Positions 22,927 through 58,300 of a DNA stretch of 64,000 bases are shown one piece after another. The position numbers and the translations under genes were made by a program. Position 1 is the first letter of the stretch, and the number at the start of each line of letters is the position of its first letter. Source of the DNA: Candidatus Magasanikbacteria bacterium RIFCSPLOWO2_12_FULL_43_12 (lineage in GTDB: Bacteria > Patescibacteriota > Patescibacteriia > Magasanikbacterales > UBA922); assembly GCA_001783065.1 (NCBI GenBank), contig MFQN01000019.1, positions 309 to 64,308 on the forward strand. Reading direction: 5' to 3'. A model generated the notes under the pieces. That model was not told the origin of the DNA. It made no database searches and was given only the letters and a program-made list of their open reading frames with translations.

Positions 22927-22981
22927 TTTCAGATTCTAAGATGGCTATTGATTTTAAAATTTATTTAAGTTTAATTAACAT

Positions 22982-26703: not shown

Positions 26704-26710
26704 TTTATTT

Positions 26711-27634: not shown

Positions 27635-27639
27635 TTCCT

Positions 27640-38605: not shown

Positions 38606-39805
38606 ATGAGAATAGTTTTTTTAACTTCAAAAATGAATTTTTCCTCGTCCGGTGGTTCTGTGGAAGAACTAGACATTATCATTCGTACTTTACAAAAGTT
38701 TGGCAATGACGTTGTCGTAGTGACTGCATTTTCTAAAAATAATCAAATTCCTCATAATTTACCATATAAAATAGTAGAGGAGAATATATCAGCGACAGAT
38801 CTGCTTGGTATTCAATTGGCTGCCATAAAGCTTTTGAAGAAATACGAAACGCAAGCTGACTTTTTTCATATTGATGGACATTTATTTTTATATGGAGCCG
38901 GGATATATCGCAGATTAAAAGGAAGCGTTCCTGTGGCAGCGTTGTTTAATTCATATTTGGCAGGTTTACCGGATAATCTTATTACCTCTTTTGCATATCC
39001 TACTGACGGTTTAATAGGTAAAATTAAAAAGAAAATCCGTTATTTAGCAGAACGTTATCTTGGTATGTGGTTGGCTAAGTCCATAGATTTATGCGCCTTT
39101 GTGAGTCCTCCGTTACAAAAGGTTTACGAAAATTTTGGTCTGCGGGCCAAACGTCACATGGTCATTGGCGACCTGATTGATTTTGATAGCTTAAAAAAGG
39201 AAAATAACATCTTTTGCGGATGTTATTCGGAACGCAAAAGTCAAGATGGGCTGATTAAAATTTTGTTTTCCAGTCGTATGATTCGAGGCAAAGGTTTTGA
39301 TTTGTTGCTTGATGGTTTTTCTCTAGTTAAAGATAAACACAAATTTCGACTAATTATTGGCGGATCTGGTCCGGATGAGCACTTCGTCGTCGAGAGGATA
39401 AAAAAGTTATCGCTTGAACCTTATGTTGAAATTCCAGGCTGGGTAGCTAAGGAAAAATTATTTGATTATTACAGACAAGCCGATATCTTTGCGCAGGTTG
39501 GCTGGAAGCCGGAAGGAACTTCTATTTCACTTCTGTACGCCATGTTATTTGGCATTCCATCGATTTTACCGCGCGGAGGCGGGTTAGAATGGCAGGCCGG
39601 CAACTGCGCTATTTATGTCAACAATGGCAATCCAGAAGAGTTGGCGTCAGCGATTGAGTTGCTGGGAAATGATGAAAGTCTAAGAAAAAAGCTTTCTGAC
39701 GAGTGTTACAATAGGATTGGAAGAGAGCAGTTTAATTGCGATAAAATGGTTGGTTATCTCTTTAACGAAATTGAGAAGATAAACAAACGATCTAAAATTA
39801 CCTAG
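38606..39805 (+). CDS. Family 4 (GT-B) glycosyltransferase
   Basis: The C-terminal domain has the EX7E-type motif (EGTSISLLYAMLFGIPSILPRGGGLEWQ). 399 aa. Confidence 0.7.
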   Translation: MRIVFLTSKMNFSSSGGSVEELDIIIRTLQKFGNDVVVVTAFSKNNQIPHNLPYKIVEENISATDLLGIQLAAIKLLKKYETQADFFHIDGHLFLYGAGIYRRLKGSVPVAALFNSYLAGLPDNLITSFAYPTDGLIGKIKKKIRYLAERYLGMWLAKSIDLCAFVSPPLQKVYENFGLRAKRHMVIGDLIDFDSLKKENNIFCGCYSERKSQDGLIKILFSSRMIRGKGFDLLLDGFSLVKDKHKFRLIIGGSGPDEHFVVERIKKLSLEPYVEIPGWVAKEKLFDYYRQADIFAQVGWKPEGTSISLLYAMLFGIPSILPRGGGLEWQAGNCAIYVNNGNPEELASAIELLGNDESLRKKLSDECYNRIGREQFNCDKMVGYLFNEIEKINKRSKIT

Positions 39806-40793
39806 ACAAATTAATTATATCATTTTGCACCATAATTTTTACCAATTCTTTAAAGGCAGTTTTTGGCTTCCAGCCCAATATTTTACGGGCCTTGGATGCG
39901 TCTCCGCAAAGACAATCAACCTCGTTTGGTCTTTTGTATTTTTCATCAATTTTCAAAACTCTAGTCCAGTCTAGACCGGCGGCTTTGCATGCTTCAACTA
40001 AAAATTCTTTTACCGAATGAGTTTCTCCGGTTGCGATTACAAAATCATCCGGTTTATTTTGTTGGAGAATTTTCCACATTGCCTCAACGTACTCTGGAGC
40101 GTAACCCCAATCACGTTTGGCGTCTACATTTCCCAATTTAATATATTTTTCTTTTCCAGCCAGGATATCTCTGATGCCAAGGGTGATTTTTCTAGTTACA
40201 AAACTTTCTCCGCGGCGTTCCGACTCGTGGTTGAAAAGGATGCCGTTGGAAATAAACATGCCGTAACTTTCACGGTAAATTCGCGCGATCTCAAAACCAT
40301 AAAGCTTGGCTGCTCCGTATGGGCTTTTTGGCTTAAATGGCGTCAATTCATTCTGGGGAGCTTCTTTGGGGTCGCCGGAATAGAGTTCGGAAGTGGATGC
40401 TTGATAAATTTTTGACTTTAGATTCAGAGCTCTAACCGATTCCAACAGGTTCAAAACTCCAATACCGCTGGTTTGCGCGGTGTAAAGCGGAGTTTCAAAC
40501 GAGACCTTAACATGAGACTGCGCCGCTAAATTATATATTTCATCAGGTTTAACTTTTGCTAAAATATTGGTGATGGATACGGAATCGGTCATGTCGCCAT
40601 AGTGCATAAGCAAATTTTTGTTGTGCGGAAAATCCGCTGTAACTTCCAATCTTTCATAATTATAAAGAATAGAATTTCTGCGGACAAAACCGTGTACTTT
40701 ATACCCTTTGGACAATAACAGTTCGGCAAGATATGAGCCATCTTGTCCGGTGATACCCGTAATAAAAGCGATTTTTTGTTTAGGCATAAACAT
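39798..40793 (-). CDS. gmd: GDP-mannose 4,6-dehydratase
   Basis: IAFITGITGQDGSYLAELLLSKGYKVHGFVRRNS is the canonical Gmd N-terminus, and YGAAKLYGFEIARIYRESYGMF carries the YxxxK. Confidence 0.9.
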   Translation of the reverse strand: MFMPKQKIAFITGITGQDGSYLAELLLSKGYKVHGFVRRNSILYNYERLEVTADFPHNKNLLMHYGDMTDSVSITNILAKVKPDEIYNLAAQSHVKVSFETPLYTAQTSGIGVLNLLESVRALNLKSKIYQASTSELYSGDPKEAPQNELTPFKPKSPYGAAKLYGFEIARIYRESYGMFISNGILFNHESERRGESFVTRKITLGIRDILAGKEKYIKLGNVDAKRDWGYAPEYVEAMWKILQQNKPDDFVIATGETHSVKEFLVEACKAAGLDWTRVLKIDEKYKRPNEVDCLCGDASKARKILGWKPKTAFKELVKIMVQNDIINLSR

Positions 40794-42291
40794 TTTTAAA
40801 AGTAAATTTTTTCATTATTAATTCGGCCAGCGGTTCCAGACCGGCTTTTCGTTTTTCACTGTCTGTTTCTTTTTCCCAAAGATAACTTAACGGCACATCC
40901 ACCGATTCTTCAAAAATGGCGGCAATAAGTCGTGACAGTTCATTTTCATCAAATTTAAAGTTTTCTAATTGTTCTTTCACTAAATAAGGCATTTCTTCGG
41001 GGGTCTTGCAATGCTTTACAAAAGACAGCTGGTTATAAAAAATATTCCCAAAGGTTATAACCGGCTTTTTTAAAAGCGTTCCTTCCCAGCCCACAGAACC
41101 GGAAATTGTCGTGATAAGTTTGGCGTTGAGAATAAGCTCAAAGCTGGTTACCGCCGGGTTGATAAGCCGCACATTCGGCGTTTTTTTTATTTCTTTATAG
41201 AAAGAACGCGGTCGATAAACCACCATCATTGGATGTTCTTTTACGTAAAGTTTGTAACCTACCGGCAATGATCTGGCGATCAGTTTAATTAAGTGAATCT
41301 GGTCTGTAAAAAACGGAGCATACAGCAGGGTGGCGATTTCCGGTTCAACATGAAGAGGGTAAAAAGCGAAATCTTCATTTGGGATAGACTGATCATACAG
41401 ATCGTTAATCCCGATTAAATTTCTGATTTTTCTTTTAAAAGAGTCTTTTAGGTAATTCCAAGGCCCGATATAGTCATAATCGTGGCGATCTTTTTTGGAA
41501 TAATGCTCATAAAAATTTTTTGCCAGTGAAAAAATATTATTCTTTAAATTTTTTGGCAGCAAAAATTGAAATTGTTTCGCGCGCTGAAGAGGCTGTTTGC
41601 TTGGATGAGCCGGCTCGTAATGCGGATGCGGCGCGGAACGAAAATTTTCAAGAAATAATTTAGCTTTTTCCAAAACGGTTTCGGGAATTATATTTTTTTC
41701 TAAATAGCTATTCGCAGTTTCTTTAACATAAGAAAAGTCATCATATTTTTCGCTTAAAAGATAAGAATTTTTTATGTAAGAAGGATGGATTACAAAAGTT
41801 TTTATTCCCATTTTCTTCGCCATATGAAAGAGAAGCATGCTTCCCATGGCGGCGACCGCGGAAAAAACAATAAAATCCGGTTTTTCGGTTTTTAAAAAGT
41901 TTAAAATTGTTTTTGCCTTAATCTGCAGGATTCTTAAAATTTCTTCGTAATTATAAGGCGATTTATCGTAAGGGTACTCCCGCACCAATTGATTTGACAT
42001 TATTACTCGGTCGATTGCGATATATGGCCAGAGATTCGGTATGCCATAGTCTTTTTCCATTTTTTTTAAAAAGTCCAAGTCAAGCTTGGTATTTTTAAAT
42101 TCTTCATGTATATCTTCATCAAGAAGCAAAGATGAATAGTCTATATCCTTTTGGTTTTTGAGGAAATCATGGCTCGAACGCAAATTGACAAAGCCGCAAA
42201 ATTGTTCGACTCTGTACTTATTTTTGAGAATAATTGCCAAAATATGGCCAAGATAAGCGAAATTTCTCTGTAATAAAAAACACGCTTTCAT
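40780..42291 (-). CDS. Capsule polysaccharide biosynthesis (Capsule_synth, KpsC/KpsS/LpsZ-like) family protein; candidate ulosonic-acid glycosyltransferase
   Basis: It has a conserved KEHP block (LYVKEHPMMVVYRP...NVRLINPAVTSFELI...SGSVGWEGTLLKKPVITFG). It is a paralog of 45636-47072. Confidence 0.45.
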   Translation of the reverse strand: MKACFLLQRNFAYLGHILAIILKNKYRVEQFCGFVNLRSSHDFLKNQKDIDYSSLLLDEDIHEEFKNTKLDLDFLKKMEKDYGIPNLWPYIAIDRVIMSNQLVREYPYDKSPYNYEEILRILQIKAKTILNFLKTEKPDFIVFSAVAAMGSMLLFHMAKKMGIKTFVIHPSYIKNSYLLSEKYDDFSYVKETANSYLEKNIIPETVLEKAKLFLENFRSAPHPHYEPAHPSKQPLQRAKQFQFLLPKNLKNNIFSLAKNFYEHYSKKDRHDYDYIGPWNYLKDSFKRKIRNLIGINDLYDQSIPNEDFAFYPLHVEPEIATLLYAPFFTDQIHLIKLIARSLPVGYKLYVKEHPMMVVYRPRSFYKEIKKTPNVRLINPAVTSFELILNAKLITTISGSVGWEGTLLKKPVITFGNIFYNQLSFVKHCKTPEEMPYLVKEQLENFKFDENELSRLIAAIFEESVDVPLSYLWEKETDSEKRKAGLEPLAELIMKKFTFKNVYA

Positions 42292-42296
42292 AAATA

Positions 42297-42325
42297 TTGA
42301 CTTTAATTCAGGTTTAGTCTAAAAT
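42297..42325 (+). promoter_or_regulatory. sigma70-type promoter TTGACT-N17-TAAAAT driving the + strand B12-rSAM/ABC operon
   Basis: -35 at 42297-42302, -10 at 42320-42325, spacer 17 nt. The predicted start is ~80 nt upstream of ATG 42410. Confidence 0.5.
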
Positions 42326-42335
42326 AAGCCCATAT

Positions 42336-42364
42336 ATTATATAGATTTGCCCCACGGAAGTCAA
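42336..42364 (-). promoter_or_regulatory. sigma70-type promoter TTGACT-N17-TATAAT on the minus strand driving the Capsule_synth gene
   Basis: The reverse complement reads TTGACT(42364-42359)-N17-TATAAT(42341-42336). It is interleaved with the + strand promoter, forming a near-symmetric 68-bp element. Confidence 0.5.
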
Positions 42365-42409
42365 ATTTGTTTTATTTGTAAGAGTTGAGTTTTTAGCCAA
42401 TATATATCT

Positions 42410-43831
42410 ATGGAAAATATAGAGAGAAATATGAAAATTTTAGTGATAAATGTTTGTTTAAGGCCGTATAAACCGCAGATTATGTTTCCTTTGGGTTTAT
42501 CATACGTGGTAGGCGCCATTCAAAGAGCCGGATATGATTTTGAGATGTTGGATTTGGATAGAGACCGTAAATCGGAAGAGGAAATCAAGAGTTTTTTAAC
42601 AAGCGCCACGTTTGATGTCGTGGCGCTTGGTTGCATCGCGACTGGCTACAAGACGGTCAAAAACTTAACTCGGATAATCAGAGAGGTTAAAAAAGGCGCG
42701 GTAATTATTGTCGGCAATTCGGTGGCGGATTCAATTCCGAAATTATTATTGGAAAAAACCGAGGCAGATGTCGCGGTTATCGGGGAAGGAGAAATAACCA
42801 TTGTTGAGGTTCTTGACAAGATAAAAAATGCTGAATCACTGGCAGGGGTTAAAGGCATTTGGTATAAAGAAAAAAATGAAATTTTTAGCAACCCGCCGCG
42901 GGAAGTAATTAAAGATATTAACTCCATTTCGTTTCCCGGGTGGGATAGTTTTGATATGGAGGCTTATATTGTGGCCGCGAGAGAGCTTATCAATGACCCG
43001 CCTCCAATTCCGAAGGACGGCATTAGGGCGTTTATGGTTAATTTCGCTCGGGGTTGTCCGTTTAAATGTTCTTTCTGTTACCAAGTTTTTCAACGCAACG
43101 GTTATCGTTTTAGGTCAACCGATTCTGTGCTGGAGGAAATTAAAGAATTGCAAAATAGATATAAAATTAATTATATCATGTTTAATGATGATTTATCTTT
43201 TTTGACCAAAAAACAGGTTGAAGATTTTGTGGACAGGGTTTTAGTGGAAAAATTAAAATTTTTTTGGACCGCCATTTGCCGTTCCAATTTGTTTAATTCG
43301 GAAAATGACGTAGAGTTGCTAAAAAAAATCAAATCTGCGGGGTGCATTGGTTTTGGCTATTCGCTTGAGTCTGCCAACGAAGAGATCCGTCGCTCAATGA
43401 ATAAAATGTTGGATTTAAAAAGTTTTGCCATGCAGAAGAGGCTATTGGATAAGGCCGACCTATCCAGTTGGACGAGTTTGGTTTTCGGCTATCCTCAAGA
43501 GACCAAAGAGACGATTAAGGAAACGATGGATCTTTGCTATGACCTCGGCATCTATCCAAGTAGTGGGTATCTCCTCCCCATGCCAATGACTCCGATGTAT
43601 GATTATATTTTTAAGAATGGGATGGTAAAGGATGAAGAAGCGTATGTTTTGTCGCTCGGGGATCGTCAAGATTTAAGAATTAATTTAACCAAAATGTCCG
43701 ATAGTGAATTTCAGGAAGAAATAAAGAAACATTTAGAGCGCATATCAGAAAAATTACATTTAGGGCTGAAAGGGGATGAGCTGATTAAAACCACGAATTA
43801 TAAGTCGGATCAATCTAAAATTAAACAATAG
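42410..43831 (+). CDS. Cobalamin-binding radical SAM enzyme (class B rSAM)
   Basis: B12-binding N-terminal domain (KILVINVCL...FPLGLSYVVGAIQRAGYDFEMLDLD, VIGEGE) and FARGCPFKCSFC (CX3CX2C). 473 aa. Confidence 0.8.
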   Translation: MENIERNMKILVINVCLRPYKPQIMFPLGLSYVVGAIQRAGYDFEMLDLDRDRKSEEEIKSFLTSATFDVVALGCIATGYKTVKNLTRIIREVKKGAVIIVGNSVADSIPKLLLEKTEADVAVIGEGEITIVEVLDKIKNAESLAGVKGIWYKEKNEIFSNPPREVIKDINSISFPGWDSFDMEAYIVAARELINDPPPIPKDGIRAFMVNFARGCPFKCSFCYQVFQRNGYRFRSTDSVLEEIKELQNRYKINYIMFNDDLSFLTKKQVEDFVDRVLVEKLKFFWTAICRSNLFNSENDVELLKKIKSAGCIGFGYSLESANEEIRRSMNKMLDLKSFAMQKRLLDKADLSSWTSLVFGYPQETKETIKETMDLCYDLGIYPSSGYLLPMPMTPMYDYIFKNGMVKDEEAYVLSLGDRQDLRINLTKMSDSEFQEEIKKHLERISEKLHLGLKGDELIKTTNYKSDQSKIKQ

Positions 43832-43832
43832 T

Positions 43833-45617
43833 GTGCTGTTCAGAAATAATAAAATTTTAAACCTTTTGCGTTTGTTGCGCCGCGCGTTTGGCGATTATAA
43901 GAGACAGATAGTTTTTCTGTCCGTTTTTGGTTTTTTTGGCGGCGTTTTGGAGGGGGTGGGCATAAACGCGATAATTCCTTTATTTTCCTTTTTAGGCAAA
44001 TCTTCTTCGCCGCAAGTGGATATTATTTCACAAGCGATCCAAGGTTTTTTTCGTTTTTTTCATCTGCCGTATAGCCTAAAATCAATTCTAATCTTCATTA
44101 TCGTGATATTTTTGTCCAAAGCGGTCTTGCTGTTTTTAGCTAAATTTATTTCCGCCCGAATTATTGCTGATTATCAGCGGGCAACGCGGCATAAAATTTT
44201 GCGGCTCATTCTGTTATCCGATTGGCCGAATTTGTTTAAACAGAAGGTCGGTTATTTGGATCAGATATTGATTACTGATATCAATTATAGCTCTGCCATG
44301 TTGGCGCATATGAGCTCTGCCATTTTGATTACTGCCAATTTGATAGTTTATAGTTTTGTGGCTGTCAACATTTCACCGGTTATTGCCGCGCTGGCGATGA
44401 TCTCCGGAGTTGTCATTTTGTTCTTGTTGAAGCCGCTTTTTTATCGGAATAAACTATTTTCCGAGAAGATTGCCAGCATATATAAGCAGACGGCGCACTT
44501 TATCAGTGAAAGCATAATTGGGATTAAAACCATTAAAACATCATCTTCGGAAAATTTTTTAATTGAAAAAGGGGACGATTTTTTTAATCACATTAAGAAA
44601 TTCACCGTAAAAAATGCCATCATGCAGAATTTGACTAATACGCTTTTACAGCCGGTCGGTCTTCTTTTTGTCATAGGTATTTTTGCTTTTTTTTATAAAG
44701 TTAAGGGATTCGATTTTGCTTCGTTCGCTGTGATTGTCTACGCGATTAATAAGTTATTTTCTCATATACAATTAGCCGAGACTGAAGCGCACACGTTGGC
44801 TTCGCTTACGCCGTTTGTGGTTAATGTTTTACAGTATCAGGAAGAGGCGGCGAGTCATCAGGAGATTGATACTGGAGGAAAAAAATTTAGTTTTAAGAAA
44901 GAAGTGTGTTTTAAAAATGTTGACTTTTCTTACAATTCTGGCAAAAAGACTCTTTCCAATTTAAATTTTTCAATAGAGTGCGGCCGGATGATAGGGATAA
45001 TCGGCGCGTCTGGCGCTGGCAAAACCACTCTCGTGGATTTGTTATTGCGATTGTTTAAACCCAGCGGAGGTTCAATTTGTGTTGATGGTATTGATATTAA
45101 TGAGATCGGATTGGCTGAATGGCGCGCCGGAGTTGGTTATGTTTCGCAAGATATATTTCTTTTGAATGATACGATTGAAAATAATATCCGTTTTTATAAC
45201 GAATCTATTTCCCATGAAGACGCGCTGGAAGCGGCGGAAATGGCGCAGTGCAATGAGTTTATTCAAAAATTGTCCCAGCAGTTCATGACTGTGGTTGGGG
45301 AGCGTGGCATGTCGCTTTCCGGCGGCCAGCGTCAGCGCATCGCATTAGCGAGAGTTTTGGCGCGTAAACCAAGCATTTTAGTTTTGGACGAAGCCACCAG
45401 CGCGCTAGATAACGAATCGGAAATAATGGTTCAGCGCGCGATTGAAAAGTTGCGCGGGAAAATTACGGTTTTGGTGATCGCCCATCGGTTATCTACCGTA
45501 ATGACATCCGATAAATTAGTTGTTTTGGAAAAAGGAAGGATCATTGAAGAGGGCGCGCCGTTGGATTTATTAAAGAACCGCGAATCGTATTTTTCAAAAG
45601 CATATAATTTAAAATAG
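43833..45617 (+). CDS. ABC exporter, fused transmembrane domain-nucleotide binding domain (MsbA/PglK-type lipid/lipid-linked glycan flippase candidate)
   Basis: Six N-terminal TM helices. Walker A GASGAGKTTL, signature LSGGQRQRIALARVL and Walker B ILVLDEATSALD are present. Confidence 0.85.
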   Translation: MLFRNNKILNLLRLLRRAFGDYKRQIVFLSVFGFFGGVLEGVGINAIIPLFSFLGKSSSPQVDIISQAIQGFFRFFHLPYSLKSILIFIIVIFLSKAVLLFLAKFISARIIADYQRATRHKILRLILLSDWPNLFKQKVGYLDQILITDINYSSAMLAHMSSAILITANLIVYSFVAVNISPVIAALAMISGVVILFLLKPLFYRNKLFSEKIASIYKQTAHFISESIIGIKTIKTSSSENFLIEKGDDFFNHIKKFTVKNAIMQNLTNTLLQPVGLLFVIGIFAFFYKVKGFDFASFAVIVYAINKLFSHIQLAETEAHTLASLTPFVVNVLQYQEEAASHQEIDTGGKKFSFKKEVCFKNVDFSYNSGKKTLSNLNFSIECGRMIGIIGASGAGKTTLVDLLLRLFKPSGGSICVDGIDINEIGLAEWRAGVGYVSQDIFLLNDTIENNIRFYNESISHEDALEAAEMAQCNEFIQKLSQQFMTVVGERGMSLSGGQRQRIALARVLARKPSILVLDEATSALDNESEIMVQRAIEKLRGKITVLVIAHRLSTVMTSDKLVVLEKGRIIEEGAPLDLLKNRESYFSKAYNLK

Positions 45618-45635
45618 AGTTTAAAACAAAGGTAT

Positions 45636-47072
45636 ATGCGTTTATTTGTGATTGAATGGGCAAATGGATTGCCGGAAATGGTTGATGTCATTAGGGAAAT
45701 TAAAAAAGACGGACATGAAATATCGTATTGGTCCGGTTGTAATCTTGGCCGTATACCAAAAGTTGAATTTCCCAACACAGTATTTCACGATCATTTTGAT
45801 GCTTTGGCCGGTCGGCCGGCGCCCGGCGTGGATGATTCGGAGTTCCCGCCTCCCGGTGAGGATTTGTTAGTTCAACTTGCCGATGTTGAGTCAACCACAC
45901 TGACCATGATGAACAAAAAATATCCAAGTTTATCGGTGGATGAACGAAAGCATTTTTATTATCATCTGGTAAAGTATTGGTCAGGAGTTTTAAAAAAGTT
46001 TCAGCCGGAAGCGATAATTTTTTTGGTGACTCCACATACCGTGTATAATTTTGTAATCTATTCTCTGGCCAAATTATTTGGCCTAAAAACCATAATGTTT
46101 GATGTGGTACTTATGGATGGGTATCGAATGATAGGATTGAACGACTATAAAAAAGGAAACAGCGATTTAGAAAACGCAATCGTCGGACAAGGACAAGATT
46201 ACTCGGTGTCTGACTTGGGCGCGGGAATTAGGTCGTATTATGAAAGGCAGACGAGTCAGCGAATTGATGCCACGCCGGCATATACCAGAGAATATGTCGC
46301 ATCGCGTTCCGGCCGCAATTTATTGCTTTTGAGAGTTAAAATAATTTGGAAAAGTATCGCCAATTTGTCTATTTTTAAGAAAATTTTTGATTTTGTGATG
46401 ACGGAAATTGGTTCAAACATGAAAAAAGAATATGTTCAAGTACAGACCGAACCGGGTTTCGGCAAACCATTTGTGTATCTGTCGCTTAATTACCAGCCAG
46501 AAGCCACCACCTCTCCGATGGGCGGGGTATTCGTGGATCAGCTCCTAATGATTGAAACATTGGCGGCCGCGATTCCACCCGATTGGTTGATTTATGTTAA
46601 AGAACACCCTGGTCAGTGGATAACAAATAGCAAGAGGTATTTTAGTTATCGTTATCGCGGTTACTATAAGGAGATTATCCGGTTGCCCAATGTAAGATTG
46701 ATGCCAGTGGTTACCAGTAATTATGACTTAATCAATAATGCTCGGGCGGTGGCCACGGTTACCGGAACGCCGGGATGGGAAGCATTGTTGAGATCAAAAC
46801 CGGTGTTAGTTTTCGGTTATCCTTGGTATCAGCATTGTTCGGGGGTGTTTAAGGTCAATAGCGCGGAATCATGCAAAATAGCGATTGAAAAGATTATCAA
46901 TGGTTTTAAAGTTGAAAAACAGGCGATAATAAATTTTTTATATCATTTTGGCAATTTATCATGGCCCGGGTATAATGACGAAAATACCAAAAAACTCGCG
47001 GCGATTGATAGCCGCGGAGTGAAGGACGGTTATGTAAGGTTTTTATTAGCGCAAATTAAAAAACAGGTTTAA
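45636..47072 (+). CDS. Capsule_synth (KpsC/KpsS-like) family protein, paralog of 40780-42291
   Basis: LIYVKEHPGQW...NVRLMPVVTSNYDLI...TGTPGWEALLRSKPVLVFG aligns with the other copy. Confidence 0.45.
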   Translation: MRLFVIEWANGLPEMVDVIREIKKDGHEISYWSGCNLGRIPKVEFPNTVFHDHFDALAGRPAPGVDDSEFPPPGEDLLVQLADVESTTLTMMNKKYPSLSVDERKHFYYHLVKYWSGVLKKFQPEAIIFLVTPHTVYNFVIYSLAKLFGLKTIMFDVVLMDGYRMIGLNDYKKGNSDLENAIVGQGQDYSVSDLGAGIRSYYERQTSQRIDATPAYTREYVASRSGRNLLLLRVKIIWKSIANLSIFKKIFDFVMTEIGSNMKKEYVQVQTEPGFGKPFVYLSLNYQPEATTSPMGGVFVDQLLMIETLAAAIPPDWLIYVKEHPGQWITNSKRYFSYRYRGYYKEIIRLPNVRLMPVVTSNYDLINNARAVATVTGTPGWEALLRSKPVLVFGYPWYQHCSGVFKVNSAESCKIAIEKIINGFKVEKQAIINFLYHFGNLSWPGYNDENTKKLAAIDSRGVKDGYVRFLLAQIKKQV

Positions 47073-47083
47073 TCATAATTATA

Positions 47084-47845
47084 ATGTATAAAGAACATAA
47101 GGAAAAAATTGTCGCCACCATTGAAGCGCGGATGACTTCAACGCGGTTGCCGGGCAAAGTGCTTCTGCCATTAGCGGGTAAGCCGGCGCTGGAACGATTA
47201 GTTGAACGTCTGAAGAGGAGCCTCTATATTGATGAAATCGTGGTAGCGACAACCACAAATCAGACCGATGAACCAATAGTGGAGCTTTGCGAGAGCTTGG
47301 GTGTAAAATATTTTCGCGGCAGTGAACTTGATGTTTTGAAACGGGTGTTGGGCGCGGCGGAGTCAGTGCGCGCTGATATTATCGTAGAGATTACCGGCGA
47401 TTGTCCATTGATGGATTGGCGCATAGTAGATCGCGGGATTGAGGAATTTTATTCTCAAAATGTTGATTATGCGGCTAATATGATTCCTCTGATTACTTAT
47501 CCCGTCGGGTTTGATGTGCAGGTTTTTCCGGTCCGTGTTTTAGCCGAGGTTGATAAATTAACTAGCGATCCGATAGATCGCGTGCATGTTTCCTATTATA
47601 TTTATCACCATCCTGACCGATATAAGCTGGGAAGCTGGCTGGCTCCGGCCGAAGCGAGTGGTCCGGCTATGCGGTTAACCCTTGACGAACTATCGGATTA
47701 TAAGCTGATCGATGAGATTTTTAGAAATTTATTACCAGTAGACGAAGATTTTAGCGTCGTTAAGGTTGTGGAGTTTCTTAACAAGAATAGACACTTATTA
47801 GAAATTAATAAACATGTCAAAGATAAAGACCCGCGGCAGGGTTAA
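47084..47845 (+). CDS. pseF: CMP-nonulosonate synthetase (acylneuraminate cytidylyltransferase family; PseF/NeuA-like)
   Basis: IEARMTSTRLPGKVLLPLAGKPALERLVERL is the CTP-transferase N-terminal motif. 253 aa. It lies in the pse gene neighbourhood. Confidence 0.7.
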   Translation: MYKEHKEKIVATIEARMTSTRLPGKVLLPLAGKPALERLVERLKRSLYIDEIVVATTTNQTDEPIVELCESLGVKYFRGSELDVLKRVLGAAESVRADIIVEITGDCPLMDWRIVDRGIEEFYSQNVDYAANMIPLITYPVGFDVQVFPVRVLAEVDKLTSDPIDRVHVSYYIYHHPDRYKLGSWLAPAEASGPAMRLTLDELSDYKLIDEIFRNLLPVDEDFSVVKVVEFLNKNRHLLEINKHVKDKDPRQG

Positions 47846-48806
47846 AAAATATCGGGCGGCAATTATCGGCGCTGGGCGAATCGGCAGCGGCTTTGATAAT
47901 TCACGTACGGCGGCAGTGGCTACCCATGCTCATGCTTTCAAAAATAATCCTCGCGTAGAGTTGGTTGGTTTTTTTGACATACAGCCGGAAAAAGCGCGCG
48001 CCGCCGCCAAGAAATGGTCGGTACTGGCTTATAAAAATTTAAATGATTTGTTGGCCGATAAGCCGGATCTAATCAGCATTTGCACCCCTGATGCGGATCA
48101 TTACCCCACGTTATTAAAAGTTTTATCTTCCAAGCCGCGCTTGATTATTTGCGAAAAACCATTGACCGCGAATATCAGGCAGGCCCGGCTGGTTGCCGAA
48201 AAAATTGTTAAAATGAATATACCGATTTTAGTAAATTATTCCCGCCGTTTTGATTCTACAATCCAAAAGTGCCGACTGGACATAAAGAAGAAAAAATATG
48301 GAAAGGTTATAAGCGCTGTGGGCGTTTATAATAAAGGACTGCTTCACACCGGTTCTCATCTGATAGATTTCGCCCGATATTTATTTGGCGATGTCTTGGA
48401 TTGCCAGGCGCTGAATGCGATTTTTGATTATCATCGCAACGATCCAAGTGTTGGGGGGTGGTTAAAATTAGAAGATTGCCCGAGTTTAAATTTGGTTGTT
48501 GGCGATAGCCGCTATTATGAAATTTTTGAAATGGATATACTTCTGGAAAAAGCACGACTGCGTTTTACGAATTTTGGCTCTGTTCTGGCTGTCCAAAAAA
48601 TTGCCAAAGACAAATCATATCCTGAATTTTCTGTATTAGGCAGGCCAAAAGAAACGGCCGTCAAACTGAATCGGGCGGCTGTCGGTCTGGCGGGGAATGC
48701 GGTAAATTTTTTGGACAAAAAAGTCGATTTATTATGTGCCGGGCAAGACGCTTTAAAGACGCAGATTGTCTGCGGTGATTTATTGAAAGGATTAAAAAAT
48801 AAATAA
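47814..48806 (+). CDS. Gfo/Idh/MocA-family NAD(P)-dependent oxidoreductase
   Basis: AAIIGAGRIGSGF Rossmann motif and a LISICTPDADHYP block. Confidence 0.7.
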   Translation: MSKIKTRGRVKKYRAAIIGAGRIGSGFDNSRTAAVATHAHAFKNNPRVELVGFFDIQPEKARAAAKKWSVLAYKNLNDLLADKPDLISICTPDADHYPTLLKVLSSKPRLIICEKPLTANIRQARLVAEKIVKMNIPILVNYSRRFDSTIQKCRLDIKKKKYGKVISAVGVYNKGLLHTGSHLIDFARYLFGDVLDCQALNAIFDYHRNDPSVGGWLKLEDCPSLNLVVGDSRYYEIFEMDILLEKARLRFTNFGSVLAVQKIAKDKSYPEFSVLGRPKETAVKLNRAAVGLAGNAVNFLDKKVDLLCAGQDALKTQIVCGDLLKGLKNK

Positions 48807-48807
48807 T

Positions 48808-50121
48808 ATGTCTGAATTAGCGATTTTTGGCGGCCAGCCGGTTAGAAAAAAACTTTTCCCCGCTTATCGGGTGATTGGACAAGAAGAAAAAGACGCGGTT
48901 AATCGAGTAATGGATTCGGGAATTTTATCGCGTTATTTAGGTTGCTGGCATGATGACTTTTACGGCGGCCCAGAAGTGCGCTCGCTGGAAAAAGAGTGGA
49001 GTGAGTATTTTGGGGTTAAACACGCTATGGTTGTTAATTCTTGCACCTCTGGATTAATCGCCGCCATTGGCGCTGTCGGTATTAGTTTTGGCGATGAAGT
49101 CATTGTCTCGCCATATACTATGGCGGCGTCAGCAACCGCCCCCCTGTGGTATGGCGGCATTCCGGTCTTTGCGGATATTGAACCGGAGCATTTTTGTCTT
49201 GATCCGGTATCGGTGCGCGCTAAAATAACGGAGCGCACCAAAGCGATTATTGTCGTTGATATTTTTGGCCAGCCGTACGATGCTGAAGCGATCAATGCTA
49301 TTGCCAAGGAGCATAATTTGATTGTCATTGAAGATTGCGCCCAAGCTCCGGGAGCAAAATATCGCGGACGGTTTGCCGGCACTCTGGGGGATGTCGGCGT
49401 TTTTTCTTTGAACTATCATAAACATATTCATACTGGCGAGGGCGGGATAGTAGTAACCAATAATGACAAATTAGCTGAACGGGTGCGGTTGATTTGTAAT
49501 CACGCTGAAGCGGTTGTTGAGGATAAGGGGGTGGCGGATTTAACTAATATGGTCGGCCTTAATTTTCGTTTAACGGAAATTCAAGCGGCGATCGGCCGCG
49601 AACAGCTGAAAAAACTTGATAGACTGACAAAGGAAAGAATTGATAACTGTAGTTATTTGACGGGACGGTTAAATGGTTTTCCCGGCATTCGCAGTCCGCG
49701 GGTGCGCGCCGAGTCCTCTCACGTGTATTATGTTCAGCCATTTTTATACAATGAAAATGAAGCAGGAGTGGAACGGAATAAATTTATTGCTGCCGTTAAA
49801 GCCGAATTGCCGGTGACCGAGCTCCGTGAGGCGGAAGGTCAGCAGATAAGTTGCGGCTATGCCAAACCTTTATATCTGCTGCCTTTGTTTCAAAAGAGAA
49901 TCGCTTTTGGAAATAATGGATATCCGTTTAATTCAGCCGCGGCAACAGTTTCGTATCAAAAAGGAATTTGTCCGGTTACGGAACGTTTGTATGAAAAAGA
50001 ATTGTTCCTGCATGAATTCATGCGTCCGCCCGCCACCAGAGATGATTTGGATGATGTTGTAAGAGCCTTTCAAAAAGTTTATGAATTTAAGGATGAATTA
50101 AAAAAAAATGATGAGCAATAA
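48808..50121 (+). CDS. DegT/DnrJ/EryC1/StrS-family PLP-dependent aminotransferase
   Basis: VVNSCTSGLIAAIGAVGI and FSLNYHKHIHTGEGG with Lys present. 437 aa. Confidence 0.75.
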   Translation: MSELAIFGGQPVRKKLFPAYRVIGQEEKDAVNRVMDSGILSRYLGCWHDDFYGGPEVRSLEKEWSEYFGVKHAMVVNSCTSGLIAAIGAVGISFGDEVIVSPYTMAASATAPLWYGGIPVFADIEPEHFCLDPVSVRAKITERTKAIIVVDIFGQPYDAEAINAIAKEHNLIVIEDCAQAPGAKYRGRFAGTLGDVGVFSLNYHKHIHTGEGGIVVTNNDKLAERVRLICNHAEAVVEDKGVADLTNMVGLNFRLTEIQAAIGREQLKKLDRLTKERIDNCSYLTGRLNGFPGIRSPRVRAESSHVYYVQPFLYNENEAGVERNKFIAAVKAELPVTELREAEGQQISCGYAKPLYLLPLFQKRIAFGNNGYPFNSAAATVSYQKGICPVTERLYEKELFLHEFMRPPATRDDLDDVVRAFQKVYEFKDELKKNDEQ

Positions 50122-50830
50122 TTTGGAGAAAGTTATAATTTTATCTACCATTGGCAGTGAAATCTTGCCGCTCTTATTGTCGGCCATGGAAGCTCAAGGT
50201 ATCGCTGTGGGAGCGATTGTACTGGATGGTATTATTAGCGAAAAAAACAGAGAGATCGTTTTAAAAAGAACCTGCAATTTTTTTGATTGGCCGGATTTTT
50301 TTGATATTGAGAGATTTAACCTCCCGACTTATCTGGTTAAAAATCATAATGGCGAAAACTGTTTGCATTTATTAAGATCATTGAACTCTGACTTAATAAT
50401 TAATGGCGGGACTCCTCGGATTCTGAAAAGTCCGATTTTATCATTACCGAAACGAGGAATATTGAATTGCCACCCTGGAATTTTGCCAAAATATCGCGGT
50501 TGTACCTGCGCCGAATGGGCGATTTACAATGATGATGAGGTGGGAGCCACCTGTCATTTTATGACCGATGGTATTGACGCCGGCCCGATTGTTTACAGCG
50601 AAGCAATGGCCATTCATCGAGGCGATAGTTATGAAAAAATGAGGACAAATCTGATTTTTCACATGATTAAAGTATTGGTCGAAGGGACATCAAAAGTTTT
50701 GCGGCAACACCTTTCCATTGATAAATTGCCGGAGCAAACTGGCGACGATTATTTTAGGGTTATTTCTGAAGAAAAATTACAGATTGTCAAGCAAAAATTG
50801 ATACAGCAAACTTACAAATATTTGGGATAA
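50108..50830 (+). CDS. Formyltransferase-family protein (sugar N-formyltransferase candidate)
   Basis: LNCHPGILPKYRG matches the formyltransferase H-x-x-x-L-P-x-x-R-G motif. 240 aa. Confidence 0.6.
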   Translation: MMSNNLEKVIILSTIGSEILPLLLSAMEAQGIAVGAIVLDGIISEKNREIVLKRTCNFFDWPDFFDIERFNLPTYLVKNHNGENCLHLLRSLNSDLIINGGTPRILKSPILSLPKRGILNCHPGILPKYRGCTCAEWAIYNDDEVGATCHFMTDGIDAGPIVYSEAMAIHRGDSYEKMRTNLIFHMIKVLVEGTSKVLRQHLSIDKLPEQTGDDYFRVISEEKLQIVKQKLIQQTYKYLG

Positions 50831-50840
50831 ATAAATTTTT

Positions 50841-53982: not shown

Positions 53983-54009
53983 AAAAAGTATCGCGGAATT
54001 ATTTTTGCT

Positions 54010-54468
54010 TTGAGTATGCTATCGCTGAAATCGGCAACATTTAACGAGTTAAAATTTTTATTGGAATTGCGCAATGATTTTTTAGTAAGAAAAAATTCTT
54101 TTAATCATGATTCGGTAAAATTTGAAAGCCATCGTCGCTGGTTGCGGAGAATTTTATCCAATTCAAATCATCGTTTGTATATTGTTGTAGATAAACAAAA
54201 ACAGCCCATTGGTCAAGTTAGATTTGATCTGCGCGGACACACGGCAGAAATCAACGTCGCTCTTATTCAAGAAGCGCGCGGCCGCGGTTTTGGCAAAGAG
54301 GCCATTCGCGAAAGTTCAGCTTTATTTTTATCGCAAAATCCCCATTATAAAATTTTGGCGCGGGTAAAAGAAGATAATTCGATTTCTTTGAAAGCATTTT
54401 TAAACGTTGGCTACAAAGAAGAAAAGAAAAAAAATGGCGTTGTTTATTTAACCTTAAGACCGCAATGA
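54010..54468 (+). CDS. GNAT-family N-acetyltransferase (PseH-like)
   Basis: EARGRGFGKEAI is acetyl-CoA-binding motif A. 152 aa. It follows pseC. Confidence 0.6.
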   Translation: MSMLSLKSATFNELKFLLELRNDFLVRKNSFNHDSVKFESHRRWLRRILSNSNHRLYIVVDKQKQPIGQVRFDLRGHTAEINVALIQEARGRGFGKEAIRESSALFLSQNPHYKILARVKEDNSISLKAFLNVGYKEEKKKNGVVYLTLRPQ

Positions 54469-55690: not shown

Positions 55691-55702
55691 TCATTCTATG
55701 TT

Positions 55703-56890: not shown

Positions 56891-56900
56891 AGACCAAGAT

Positions 56901-58286: not shown

Positions 58287-58300
58287 AAGAATTTATTATT

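What the first reader, a model, noticed from the sequence alone, without database searches (positions are those of the whole stretch)
40780..47072. Inverted pair of Capsule_synth (KpsC/KpsS-like) paralogs flanking a B12-rSAM and an MsbA/PglK-type exporter
Two ~480-500-aa paralogs (40780-42291 minus; 45636-47072 plus) share a conserved [LI]YVKEHP...NVRL...G[ST]xGWE core. That is the kind of HP-containing motif found in beta-Kdo and sialyl-type GT-B transferases. They bracket, in inverted orientation, a class B rSAM and a fused ABC exporter, and lie immediately upstream of the CMP-nonulosonate synthetase gene. They are therefore candidate transferases for the CMP-activated ulosonic acid made by the adjacent genes, and the ABC protein is a candidate flippase for the product.
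Basis: inference. Interest (0 to 1): 0.5.

Follow-up and report, generated by a model that had tools for sequence, protein, structure and literature searches.

The report
Two KpsC-like pseudaminic-acid transferase candidates
Two distantly related genes in a Candidatus Magasanikbacteria (CPR/Patescibacteria) sugar-coat locus encode enzymes built like the capsule enzymes KpsC/KpsS, and they most likely attach a sialic-acid-like sugar (pseudaminic acid) to a surface glycan that a neighbouring ABC pump exports; they are divergent, previously unnamed members of a known enzyme kind with one altered catalytic residue.

Summary

They flank a B12-radical-SAM gene and an ABCB-type exporter. A pseudaminic acid (Pse) operon lies directly downstream: an SpsF/KdsB-like cytidylyltransferase, then PseB, PseC, PseI and amidino and methyl modifiers.

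Refinements:
- Both belong to large "hypothetical" families found so far almost only in Patescibacteria (B-type in 266 species genomes).
- The conserved unit is ABC exporter then B then Pse genes. The rSAM gene is not conserved.
- The canonical QXXXD nucleophile motif is replaced by x-x-[Q/E]-P-E, always Glu, in all 103 ORFs where the motif was located (of 109).
- A third HP-motif, polysialyltransferase-like ORF (50841-51824) is another candidate transferase.

Donor, acceptor and export role are inferred, not shown. Verdict: a divergent variant of a known kind, of moderate interest.

The parts
40780..42291 (-). Cap-A: 503-aa KpsC/KpsS-like (Pfam Capsule_synth) modified GT-B glycosyltransferase with no transmembrane segment. 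It is a candidate retaining nonulosonic-acid transferase.
41338..41352 (-). Cap-A motif H314-V-E-P-E318. It occupies the columns of the KpsC/KpsS QXXXD nucleophile motif, and E318 is invariant.
   Evidence: HMMER alignment to 6mgd places E318 on Asp165. MAFFT --add with E. coli KpsC-N, KpsC-C and KpsS agrees. Invariance is shown, and coordinates.
41230..41241 (-). Cap-A K351-E-H353-P354. This is the HP motif; the His is equivalent to the KpsC general acid that protonates the CMP phosphate.
   Evidence: Aligned to VKVHP of KpsC. The role of the His comes from PMC10148158. Invariance is shown.
41083..41088 (-). Cap-A W402-E403 of the G-x-x-G-W-E nucleotide-binding motif, equivalent to KpsC S-Q-Y-G-F-E.
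42292..42409 (.). 118-bp divergent intergenic region. It holds back-to-back promoter-like sites: minus strand 42364..42336 (TTGACT-17-TATAAT, 11 of 12) towards Cap-A, and plus strand 42297..42325 (10 of 12) towards the rSAM-ABC-B operon.
   Evidence: These are consensus matches only, and the total number of sites in the region is not above the shuffled expectation.
42410..43831 (+). B12-binding radical SAM enzyme (class B), the first gene of the plus-strand operon. It is probably a sugar- or NulO-modifying accessory enzyme and is not a conserved partner of the Cap genes.
   Evidence: PF02310 plus PF04055. It falls below every NCBIfam equivalog cut-off. A homolog lies within 10 kb of the B-family gene in only 9 of 80 loci. 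A similar arrangement is seen in L087.
43833..45617 (+). Fused TMD-NBD ABC exporter (ABCB/type IV; HepA-, MsbA- and PglK-like). It is the candidate exporter or flippase for the lipid-linked product and the most conserved neighbour of the B family.
   Evidence: PF00664 plus PF00005. NCBIfam HepA 334, MsbA 300 and PglK 217 bits, all below their cut-offs. About 5-6 hydrophobic segments. Present in 66 of 80 B-family loci. Of 74 judgeable loci, it is immediately upstream on the same strand in 48 and one gene away in 13.
45636..47072 (+). Cap-B: 478-aa KpsC/KpsS-like modified GT-B glycosyltransferase with no transmembrane segment. It is a candidate retaining nonulosonic-acid transferase, co-operonic with the ABC exporter and the Pse genes.
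46488..46502 (+). Cap-B motif N285-Y-Q-P-E289 in place of QXXXD. Q287, P288 and E289 are invariant.
46599..46610 (+). Cap-B K322-E-H324-P325 (HP motif).
45888..45890 (+). Cap-B E85, an invariant acidic residue of the N-terminal domain that aligns with the invariant D94 of Cap-A (42010-42012). It is the candidate general base.
   Evidence: Joint alignment. The equivalence to KpsC Glu66 was not established.
47084..47845 (+). CTP_transf_3 cytidylyltransferase (SpsF/KdsB-like), the only one in the window and the probable CMP-Pse synthetase.
   Evidence: PF02348 at 91 bits. PseF model only 25 bits; KdsB subfamilies 46-71 bits, below their cut-offs. Best PDB hit is the uncharacterized 6oew, E 1.4e-39. 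A homolog lies directly downstream of the B gene in 7 of 80 loci.
47814..51824 (+). Accessory block of four genes: a GFO/IDH/MocA oxidoreductase, a DegT aminotransferase, a formyltransferase-like protein, and a 327-aa HP-motif protein (50841-51824) that is distantly polysialyltransferase-like.
   Evidence: 327-aa family: H229-P230 invariant; 11 of 64 members hit PF07388; hhalign against E. coli NeuS E 1.5e-4; against the Cap-A family E 0.003. The block recurs in L008, L020, L078 and L089.
51893..59365 (+). Pseudaminic acid pathway: PseB, PseC, two GNATs (PseH-like), the Pse-associated methylase, WbuX/HisH/WbuZ (acetamidino formation) and PseI.
   Evidence: NCBIfam scores: PseB 447 bits (cut-off 408); PseC 441 (cut-off 424); PseI 469 (cut-off 340); Pse_Me-ase 190 (cut-off 112); WbuX 359 (cut-off 203).
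39798..40793 (-). gmd (GDP-mannose 4,6-dehydratase). It overlaps the end of Cap-A by 14 nt and is co-transcribed with it.
   Evidence: TIGR01472 at 448 bits, above the cut-off of 415. A GDP_Man_Dehyd-family gene also follows Cap-A orthologs in L001 and L087.

Best explanation
Cap-A and Cap-B are soluble, cytoplasmic-face glycosyltransferases of the KpsC/KpsS/WbbB superfamily. That superfamily is Pfam Capsule_synth, and it covers CAZy GT107, GT99 and GT118: modified GT-B enzymes that use CMP-activated ulosonic acids. In this Candidatus Magasanikbacteria locus they most likely take a CMP-pseudaminic acid derivative made by the operon directly downstream. The product would be of the Pse5Ac7Am type, possibly methylated or formylated.

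By analogy with KpsC and WbbB, the reaction would be a retaining double displacement. The HP histidine (H353 in A, H324 in B) protonates the CMP phosphate. The invariant glutamate that replaces the QXXXD aspartate (E318 in A, E289 in B) forms a covalent sugar-enzyme intermediate. An N-terminal-domain acid (D94 in A, E85 in B) then activates the acceptor hydroxyl.

The two paralogs have different N-terminal (acceptor) domains and different conserved neighbours, so they probably make different linkages or act on different acceptors. B is translationally linked to an ABCB-type exporter that most likely moves the lipid-linked, NulO-bearing product across the membrane. A is co-transcribed with gmd and travels with a GT4 and a polytopic membrane protein, which suggests a 6-deoxyhexose-containing glycan.

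Shown: paralogy, family and fold, motif conservation, the Asp-to-Glu replacement, absence of transmembrane segments, synteny with Pse genes and with the exporter, and a known distribution confined to Patescibacteria-type genomes.

Inferred: donor identity, retaining mechanism, acceptor, and the export step.
For: - Family: PF05159 above threshold. PDB sequence hits are KpsC only. hhalign against E. coli KpsC-N gives 97.6%, E 2.9e-12, and against KpsS 92.6%, E 4.5e-7.
- Catalytic positions: His of the HP motif, G-W-E and K-P...F-G are conserved in both families. Glu lies in the nucleophile column in alignments to KpsC-C of T. dismutans and to E. coli KpsC-N, KpsC-C and KpsS. It sits 35 residues before the His in 103 of 109 Cap-like ORFs and is never Asp.
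- Context in the window: a complete-looking Pse operon lies downstream.
- Context elsewhere: 76 of 80 B-family loci hold a gene similar to one of the window's NulO-pathway genes (PseB, PseC, PseI/NeuB or the cytidylyltransferase) within 10 kb, and 54 of 80 hold a NeuB-like synthase. That is 71 NeuB-like genes in 1.32 Mb.
- A-family orthologs also lie in NeuB/CTP_transf_3/PseB clusters.
- Exporter: present in 66 of 80 loci and immediately upstream in 48 of 74 judgeable loci.
- No transmembrane segments.
- Precedents: PF05159 proteins beside NulO modules in Acinetobacter, E. coli, Photobacterium and Bacteroides (PMC4487303). KpsS1 is a characterized retaining Pse5Ac7Ac transferase, GT118 (PMC12887879). 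There is a weak match to the genetically validated Tannerella Pse/Leg transferase family NF046086 (PMC5420450).
Against: - No biochemical or glycan-structure data exist for any member, and no paper on NulO glycans in CPR was found.
- The canonical QXXXD Asp is absent, so the mechanism could differ.
- The general base could not be mapped.
- The cytidylyltransferase is not a canonical PseF.
- The window also encodes a second NeuB-like synthase (25180-26703) and a GT38-like HP-motif protein. Donor-to-enzyme assignments are therefore ambiguous.
- About 28% of well-covered B loci show no NeuB within 10 kb.
- In B. subtilis, the HP-motif protein SpsB encoded next to the CMP-Leg genes was not needed for Leg transfer (PMC7439481).
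- The ABC exporter is generic by sequence and falls below every equivalog cut-off.
Confidence: 0.62

Rival explanations
1. The enzymes have the same fold but a different donor assignment. One or both Cap proteins transfer a CMP-activated sugar other than the Pse derivative. Candidates are the product of the second NeuB-cupin/HAD pathway at 25180-27634, or a second NulO as in CPR loci with 2-3 NeuB genes. The GT38-like ORF 50841-51824 would then be the actual Pse transferase.
For: - A second NeuB-family gene with an adjacent HAD phosphatase is in the window.
- CPR loci often have 2-3 NeuB and 2 CTP_transf_3 genes alongside 1-2 Cap genes.
- The 327-aa ORF family has an invariant HP and weak but in-register similarity to polysialyltransferases. 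It sits inside the Pse operon next to pseB.
Against: - Only one CTP_transf_3 gene was found in the window, and it is adjacent to Cap-B.
- The 327-aa family occurs in only 3 of 80 B loci, whereas PseB-, PseC- or PseI-like genes are near B in most.
- The number of Cap genes does not track the number of NeuB genes.
Confidence: 0.2
2. A KpsS/KpsC-like priming and polymerizing pair. The Cap enzymes add NulO residues directly to a lipid such as phosphatidylglycerol or a polyprenyl phosphate, and extend an oligo- or poly-NulO chain. The ABC transporter exports this as a capsule-like or glycolipid coat, instead of the enzymes capping a heteroglycan.
For: - The closest relatives, KpsS and KpsC, do exactly this with Kdo (PMC12887879, PMC10148158).
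- The ABC-Cap operon core is conserved.
- Tandem Cap-Cap genes follow the ABC gene in about 8 loci.
- In 19 of 40 well-covered loci no GT2/GT4-like gene lies within 10 kb. L004 holds two NulO pathways, two Cap genes and an ABC exporter but no other Pfam-recognized glycosyltransferase in 21 kb.
Against: - The GT2/GT4 detection was crude, and the flanks are only 10 kb, while CPR glycan loci can exceed 60 kb, as this window does.
- The window itself holds many other glycosyltransferases (GT2 x4, GT4, two PMT_2 GT-C).
- The exporter is ABCB-type, not KpsMT/Wzm-Wzt-type.
- Characterized PF05159 NulO enzymes (KpsS1, Gtr59) add single residues to repeat units.
Confidence: 0.13
3. Not transferases of ulosonic acids at all. 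They would be TagF/TagB-type CDP-glycerol or CDP-ribitol phosphotransferases, or GT-B-like nucleotide-sugar hydrolases/epimerases that fill the apparently missing PseG step.
For: - No canonical PseG was detected in the window.
- TagB-like annotation has been given to other NulO transferase candidates (PMC5420450).
Against: - There is no PF04464 hit at E <= 0.01.
- The conserved residues are those of the CMP-binding and nucleophile machinery of KpsC.
- Up to three divergent paralogs per locus with different N-terminal domains fits acceptor diversification, not a single pathway hydrolase.
- DUF218, which is fused to a GNAT in L002, is an alternative PseG-analog candidate.
Confidence: 0.05

Closest known systems
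KpsC and KpsS (CAZy GT107), retaining beta-Kdo transferases of group 2/3 capsule biosynthesis
   Same: - Same Pfam family (PF05159), and the only PDB relatives by sequence.
- Shared HP histidine, S/T-x-x-G-[FW]-E and K-P...F-G motifs.
- Soluble or peripheral proteins.
- Work upstream of an ABC exporter.
- Occur as paired paralogous modules with different linkage or acceptor roles.
   Different: - About 14-16% structural-alignment identity.
- QXXXD is replaced by x-x-[Q/E]-P-E, with Glu instead of the Asp nucleophile and no conserved Gln.
- A longer N-terminal half (about 280-300 aa) that Pfam does not recognize.
- The genomic context makes pseudaminic acid, not Kdo.
- The exporter is an ABCB half-transporter, not KpsMT.
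- The host is a Patescibacteria (CPR) bacterium. No LPS- or Kdo-synthesis genes were seen in the window, and the whole genome was not examined.
KpsS1 / KpsS2 / Gtr59 of Acinetobacter baumannii (KpsS1 = CAZy GT118, retaining Pse5Ac7Ac transferase)
   Same: PF05159-type protein encoded directly beside a nonulosonic-acid synthesis module. This is the precedent that such proteins transfer Pse, Aci or Leg-type sugars from CMP donors to a growing glycan (PMC4487303; PMC12887879).
   Different: - The KpsS1 systems are Wzx/Wzy capsule loci of Proteobacteria. Here the partner is usually an ABC exporter, and the families known so far come almost only from Patescibacteria.
- Whether GT118 has Asp or Glu at the nucleophile position is not known to me.
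WbbB N-terminal module (GT99), retaining beta-Kdo chain terminator of ABC-transporter-dependent O-antigen synthesis
   Different: Sequence similarity is marginal (joint profile E 0.005). WbbB has the Asp nucleophile and is part of a multidomain polymerase-terminator.
Tannerella forsythia Tanf_01245 / TFUB4_00887 (NCBIfam NF046086, BFO_1060 family), genetically validated Pse/Leg-derivative transferases
   Same: HP-motif GT-B-like proteins of about 445 aa encoded next to CMP-Pse or CMP-Leg genes. The weak HMM match falls on the same C-terminal region.
   Different: Scores are 19-24 bits against a family cut-off of 200, so these proteins are not members. The Tannerella enzymes act in Bacteroidota general O-glycosylation.

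Membership tests
Pfam PF05159 Capsule_synth | HMM score above the curated gathering threshold (20 bits) | tested here: met
   A scores 29.6 bits and B 36.3 bits. The match covers only profile positions about 139-271 of 310, which is the C-terminal nucleotide-binding half.
GT107 (KpsC/KpsS) / GT99 (WbbB) retaining beta-Kdo transferases | Modified GT-B fold closest to the KpsC and WbbB structures | tested here: met
GT107 (KpsC/KpsS) / GT99 (WbbB) retaining beta-Kdo transferases | HP motif histidine (general acid for the CMP phosphate) | tested here: met
   H353 (A) and H324 (B) align with His194 of E. coli KpsC-N. The His is invariant or nearly so. The Pro is replaced in 4 of 109 ORFs.
GT107 (KpsC/KpsS) / GT99 (WbbB) retaining beta-Kdo transferases | Invariant QXXXD motif with the aspartate nucleophile | tested here: not met
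   The motif columns read H-V-E-P-E (A) and N-Y-Q-P-E (B). Glu replaces Asp and the Gln is not conserved. Glu is found in all 103 ORFs where the motif was located (of 109), and Asp in none. Function may be retained with Glu as nucleophile, but the defining residue differs.
GT107 (KpsC/KpsS) / GT99 (WbbB) retaining beta-Kdo transferases | N-terminal-domain glutamate general base (Glu66 in KpsC-N, Glu158 in WbbB) | tested here: inconclusive
   An invariant acidic residue exists in the N-terminal domain (E85 in B, D94 in A). Sequence and profile alignments to KpsC do not extend into that domain, and model coordinates could not be superposed.
GT107 (KpsC/KpsS) / GT99 (WbbB) retaining beta-Kdo transferases | Kdo donor supply (KdsA/KdsB) and a KpsMT- or Wzm/Wzt-type transporter in the system | tested here: not met
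   No KdsA-type (DAHP_synth_1) gene appears among the 56 window ORFs scanned. The context is a Pse pathway, and the transporter is a fused ABCB-type exporter.
GT118 (KpsS1-type pseudaminyltransferases) | Gene adjacent to a pseudaminic acid synthesis module | tested here: met
   The window has PseB, PseC and PseI above their equivalog cut-offs, 5-12 kb downstream in the same operon as B. 76 of 80 B loci hold a gene similar to one of the window's NulO-pathway genes within 10 kb.
GT118 (KpsS1-type pseudaminyltransferases) | Family-level sequence similarity to KpsS1 | not tested
The attempt through E. coli Pse O-antigen clusters found no Cap-like neighbour.
GT118 (KpsS1-type pseudaminyltransferases) | Retaining transfer of Pse from CMP-Pse | not testable with these tools
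   This requires an enzyme assay.
NCBIfam NF046086, BFO_1060 family (Tannerella Pse/Leg transferases) | HMM score above the curated cut-off (200 bits) | tested here: not met
   19.2 and 24.5 bits. This is a distant resemblance over the C-terminal region only.
TagF/TagB-type CDP-glycerol glycerophosphotransferases (PF04464) | Pfam Glyphos_transf match, or best structural match to TagF-like enzymes | tested here: not met
Bacterial sialyltransferases GT38/GT52/GT80 | Pfam match (for example PF07388), or best structural match to sialyltransferases | tested here: not met

The most novel reading that the evidence does not exclude
Patescibacteria (CPR) widely encode a previously unrecognized surface-glycan pathway. 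In it, Glu-nucleophile KpsC/KpsS-like enzymes, which would form new CAZy families, build a nonulosonic-acid glycolipid or oligo-NulO chain directly on a lipid carrier, and a dedicated ABCB-type exporter delivers it to the cell surface. This would be a monoderm, Kdo-free analogue of the KpsS/KpsC-primed capsule pathway. It would coat these ultra-small episymbionts with sialic-acid-like sugars.
Probability: 0.15. Interest if true: 0.7.

Novelty: new variant of a known kind. Interest (0 to 1): 0.45.

Why it matters
Nonulosonic-acid transferases are the least known step of bacterial sialic-acid-like glycosylation. Only a handful are characterized: Maf, FlmG, KpsS1/GT118 and the Tannerella enzymes.

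This locus points to three related Patescibacteria families, all currently annotated as hypothetical. B-type genes alone occur in 266 species-representative genomes. They are credible NulO transferases with a systematically altered nucleophile motif and a conserved exporter partner.

If confirmed, three things would follow:
- One or more new CAZy families would be defined.
- Retaining ulosonic-acid transfer with a Glu nucleophile would be demonstrated.
- Many CPR bacteria would be shown to display pseudaminic-acid-type sugars on their surface, which bears on how these episymbionts interact with hosts and phages.

I found no paper linking CPR bacteria with nonulosonic acids in the held library.

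Tried and rejected
- [quoted passage not shown] Rejected. An rSAM homolog is present within 10 kb in only 9 of 80 loci and an A-type gene in 13 of 80. The conserved unit is ABC followed by B. A divergent A-type or third-subfamily Cap gene directly upstream of the ABC gene does recur in about 10 loci.
- [quoted passage not shown] No correlation was found.
- Relating the 327-aa ORF to the Cap families. With a single sequence the match was not significant. With a profile it was only E 0.003, and the family is closer to GT38 NeuS.
- Obtaining a GT118/KpsS1 sequence. The paper is not held. E. coli Pse O-antigen clusters were retrieved (L092, L093), but the genes next to pseI are not Cap-like, and L093 uses a GT52 fragment instead.
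- The first E. coli search, with pseB DNA, hit only FnlA-type clusters.
- A Foldseek search of AFDB for annotated relatives could not be run, because the library is not installed.
- Mapping the general base by sequence failed. Alignments to KpsC and KpsS cover only the C-terminal domain.
- Literature searches for CPR/Patescibacteria plus nonulosonic or pseudaminic acid returned nothing relevant.

Full report
**Observation**

They are homologous far beyond chance. BLASTP gives 33% identity over 153 residues, E 2e-26. Comparing profiles built from 72 homologs of each gives probability 100%, E 1.8e-39 over 355 columns. The homology therefore covers most of both proteins, not only the quoted [LI]YVKEHP...NVRL...G[ST]xGWE core.

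Both score above the Pfam Capsule_synth gathering threshold (29.6 and 36.3 bits against 20). The match covers only the C-terminal nucleotide-binding half.

Between them lie a B12-binding radical SAM gene (42410-43831) and a fused ABC_membrane/ABC_tran exporter (43833-45617). A CTP_transf_3 cytidylyltransferase starts 12 nt after B.

The window comes from a Candidatus Magasanikbacteria MAG (RIFCSPLOWO2_01_FULL series, contig of 124,295 bp). The evidence is 100% identical proteins on record (P0121; P0241).

**What the proteins are**

By sequence, the only solved relatives are KpsC beta-Kdo transferase modules. Single sequences give E 4e-7 to 5e-6, and the joint family profile gives E 5e-12, with WbbB at 0.005. 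Profile comparison with E. coli UTI89 reference proteins gives KpsC-N 97.6%, E 2.9e-12, and KpsS 92.6%, E 4.5e-7.

Neither protein has a transmembrane segment. The one hydrophobic stretch in A is the Rossmann core. They should therefore act on the cytoplasmic side, where CMP-sugars are found.

**Catalytic machinery**

For KpsC the defining residues are three: the Asp of the invariant QXXXD motif (nucleophile, Asp160), the His of the HP motif (general acid), and an N-terminal-domain Glu (base, Glu66) (PMC10148158).

A joint alignment of the two CPR families shows a shared conserved set:
- Y31/Y52
- E85/D94
- P124/P138
- [Q/E]-P-E (E289/E318)
- Q302/Q331
- Y-V-K-E-H-P
- R339/R360
- Y344/Y365
- G-W-E
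- K-P...F-G-x-x-[WF]-Y

The HP histidine aligns with the KpsC histidine in every comparison.

The nucleophile column is different. HMMER aligns the families' "h-y-e-P-E" to "Q-V-E-S-D165" of T. dismutans KpsC-C. Adding E. coli KpsC-N, KpsC-C and KpsS to the alignment puts H-V-E-P-E318 (A) and N-Y-Q-P-E289 (B) in the same columns as Q-T-F-N-D160, Q-V-E-D-D and Q-V-Y-N-D.

Across 109 Cap-like ORFs collected from related loci, 103 have x-x-[Q/E]-P-E exactly 35 residues before K-E-H-P. The residue is always Glu and never Asp, and this includes a third subfamily. Four of the remaining six keep Q-P-E and the His but have lost the Pro.

So the HP feature of GT107/GT99 is met and the QXXXD feature is not. 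The simplest reading is a double-displacement enzyme with a Glu nucleophile, but that is an inference. The general base could not be mapped. E85/D94 is the candidate.

**Genomic context in the window**

The plus-strand operon runs as follows:
- rSAM
- ABC exporter
- Cap-B
- cytidylyltransferase
- GFO/IDH/MocA oxidoreductase
- DegT aminotransferase
- formyltransferase-like protein
- 327-aa unknown
- PseB (447 bits, cut-off 408)
- PseC (441, cut-off 424)
- two GNATs
- Pse-associated methylase (190, cut-off 112)
- WbuX/HisH/WbuZ amidotransferase set
- PseI (469, cut-off 340)
- DUF218
- a second B12-rSAM

This is a pathway for a modified pseudaminic acid.

The cytidylyltransferase is the only CTP_transf_3 gene among the 56 ORFs of the window that were scanned. 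It is SpsF/KdsB-like rather than a canonical PseF. SpsF-type enzymes are the proposed CMP-Leg synthetase in B. subtilis (PMC7439481).

Cap-A is transcribed divergently. The two best promoter-like sites of the scanned region lie back to back in the 118-bp gap. Cap-A overlaps a bona fide gmd by 14 nt (448 bits, cut-off 415).

The whole 64-kb window is a glycan locus. It also carries CDP-3,6-dideoxyhexose genes, WecB, four GT2, one GT4, two PMT_2 GT-C proteins and five radical SAM genes.

**Context elsewhere**

Both families are large: 600 and 773 hits among the scored candidates. The best 120 hits listed for each family are 42-100% identical to the query (42-78% for B, 50-100% for A). Almost all come from Patescibacteria bins, and every named one is "hypothetical protein". 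B-type genes were confirmed in 266 GTDB species representatives, and the best 80 are all Patescibacteria-type MAGs.

I used the window's own proteins as BLAST probes on those 80 loci, each with up to 10 kb of flank on either side.

| Neighbour within 10 kb | Loci of 80 |
|---|---|
| PseB-like | 67 |
| PseC-like | 61 |
| NeuB/PseI-like | 54 |
| Any of PseB/PseC/NeuB/cytidylyltransferase | 76 |
| ABC exporter homolog | 66 |

The 54 loci with a NeuB/PseI-like gene hold 71 such genes in 1.32 Mb.

Of 74 loci with enough upstream sequence to judge, the exporter ORF ends within 150 nt of the B start, on the same strand, in 48. One gene intervenes in 13 more, often a second Cap paralog. The gene directly downstream is PseB-like in 32 loci and the cytidylyltransferase in 7.

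The rSAM gene is not a conserved partner (9 of 80). A-type genes lie within 10 kb in 13 of 80. In about ten loci, an A-type gene or a member of a third Cap subfamily (about 25% identical to A) lies divergently just upstream of the ABC gene, as in this window.

In the six contigs retrieved for five A-family proteins (L001-L003, L087-L089), the Cap-A gene is transcribed divergently from an operon that contains a flippase or exporter gene (Wzx or ABC) in all six; CTP_transf_3 and GFO are both present in L087 and L089 (in L087 only after four intervening genes), CTP_transf_3 alone in L002/L003 and L088, and GFO alone in L001. A GDP-mannose-dehydratase-family gene follows the Cap-A gene directly in L001 and L087. 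In L089 one lies two genes downstream. In L088 the only adjacent one is upstream on the opposite strand. None follows it in L002/L003. A GT4 is nearby in all six, but a polytopic protein of about 580 aa only in L001, L087 and L089.

In 19 of 40 well-covered B loci no GT2/GT4-like ORF lies within 10 kb. The acceptor is therefore open.

**Interpretation**

The association of PF05159 proteins with nonulosonic-acid modules is established for Proteobacteria and Bacteroides, through Gtr59, KpsS1 and KpsS2 (PMC4487303). KpsS1 has since been characterized as a retaining Pse5Ac7Ac transferase that founded GT118 (cited in PMC12887879). The weak NCBIfam match to NF046086 points to the Tannerella Pse/Leg-derivative transferases, which are validated by knock-outs (PMC5420450).

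Fold, motif and synteny evidence together make [quoted passage not shown] the best explanation. I put it at about 0.6.

The reservations are these:
- There are no experimental data for any member.
- The nucleophile motif is altered.
- The window holds a second NeuB-like gene (25180-26703, fused to a cupin and followed by a HAD phosphatase).
- A 327-aa HP-motif ORF lies inside the Pse operon. Its family weakly resembles GT38 polysialyltransferases: 11 of 64 members hit PF07388, and hhalign against NeuS gives E 1.5e-4.
- In B. subtilis, SpsB has an HP motif and lies next to the CMP-Leg genes, yet it is dispensable for Leg transfer (PMC7439481).

**Novelty and score**

The kind is known: a KpsC/KpsS-like ulosonic-acid transferase beside a NulO module. 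What is new is a set of families known so far almost only from Patescibacteria. They have under 20% identity to characterized enzymes, a systematic Asp-to-Glu (and Gln-loss) change in the defining motif, a long unrecognized N-terminal half, and a conserved ABCB-exporter partner.

I found no literature on nonulosonic acids in CPR bacteria in the held library.

I rate this a new variant of a known kind, with interest 0.45. The most novel reading still open is a CPR-wide, Kdo-free analogue of KpsS/KpsC-primed, ABC-exported capsule synthesis that builds NulO glycolipids or oligomers. I give it about 0.15 probability.

Noticed in passing
window 50841-51824 (+): This 327-aa ORF has no Pfam or PDB sequence hit of its own. 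Its family (111 homologs, mostly CPR) has an invariant H229-P230 in "RLHPSE". Eleven of 64 members weakly hit PF07388, the alpha-2,8-polysialyltransferase family. hhalign against E. coli NeuS gives E 1.5e-4 in register on the HP and G-x-S-S motifs. It may be a third, GT38-like, CMP-sugar transferase inside the Pse operon. It recurs with the GFO-DegT block in L008, L020 and L078, and L089 has a similarly placed 314-aa unannotated ORF whose relationship to this family was not tested.
   Followed up: partly
window 59386-60012 (+); L002/L003 11673-12719: No canonical PseG (UDP-sugar hydrolase) was detected in the window. A DUF218 gene sits next to pseI here and occurs in 17 of 80 related loci. In L002 and L003, DUF218 is fused to a GNAT (PseH-like) domain. 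DUF218 may be the PseG analog in these bacteria.
   Followed up: no
window 25180-29310 (+): A second NeuB-family synthase is fused to a cupin domain (507 aa; 124-131 bits to the NeuB and PseI models, far below their cut-offs). It is followed by a HAD-IIB phosphatase and a three-domain TPP enzyme. This may be a second, unusual ulosonic-acid-like pathway.
   Followed up: no
window 18045-24130 (+), 42410-43831, 60066-61511: There are five radical SAM genes in one glycan locus. One is a 1223-aa protein with two B12-binding/radical SAM modules (19255-22926), and another is a SPASM-type enzyme (22982-24130). This suggests extensive radical chemistry, such as C-methylation, on the sugars.
   Followed up: no
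window 33236-35002 (+); L001 16878-18638, L087 15859-17497, L089 15103-16836: This 588-aa polytopic membrane protein (about 10-12 hydrophobic segments) has no Pfam or NCBIfam hit. Proteins of similar size with no Pfam hit on record recur next to a GT4 near Cap-A orthologs in three other CPR genomes. It is a candidate polymerase, ligase or GT-C-like enzyme of the Cap-A-associated glycan.
   Followed up: no
L017, L041, L050, L071, L073 (for example L041 6054-7622): A third Capsule_synth-like subfamily, about 25% identical to Cap-A, keeps Q-P-E...K-E-H-P. In L017, L041 and L050 it lies divergently, immediately upstream of the ABC-CapB unit. In L073 it is divergent but about 1.5 kb from the ABC gene, and in L071 it lies downstream of CapB on the same strand. 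Tandem B-B' duplications follow the ABC gene in L012, L018, L024, L032, L033, L045 and L058.
   Followed up: partly
window 14085-14870, 31929-33233, 39798-40793, 5537-6625: The locus also encodes several other sugar-nucleotide enzymes: a glucose-1-phosphate cytidylyltransferase-like gene (274 bits, just under the cut-off of 300), RfbH (699 bits; CDP-3,6-dideoxyhexose pathway), a true GDP-mannose 4,6-dehydratase and a non-hydrolysing WecB. At least four different nucleotide-sugar families therefore feed this 64-kb glycan island.
   Followed up: no
window 1386-2867 (+) and 34958-36364 (-); 10271-13005 (-): Two PMT_2 (GT-C, ArnT/PMT-like) membrane glycosyltransferases and two adjacent polytopic ORFs without family hits (446 and 465 aa) are present. 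This suggests that extracytoplasmic transfer steps, from polyprenyl-phosphate sugars, are part of the same island.
   Followed up: no
whole window: GC skew is positive in every 2-kb bin except 36-38 kb, where minus-strand genes lie. 49 of the 56 ORFs of 150 aa or more are on the plus strand. This is a strongly co-oriented gene island with G+C of 36-45%.
   Followed up: no
window 37588-37974 (+): This 128-aa ORF looks like a small cupin by sequence, but its only Pfam hit was PF14667 (Polysacc_synt_C, 36.8 bits). The assignment is odd and was not resolved.
   Followed up: no
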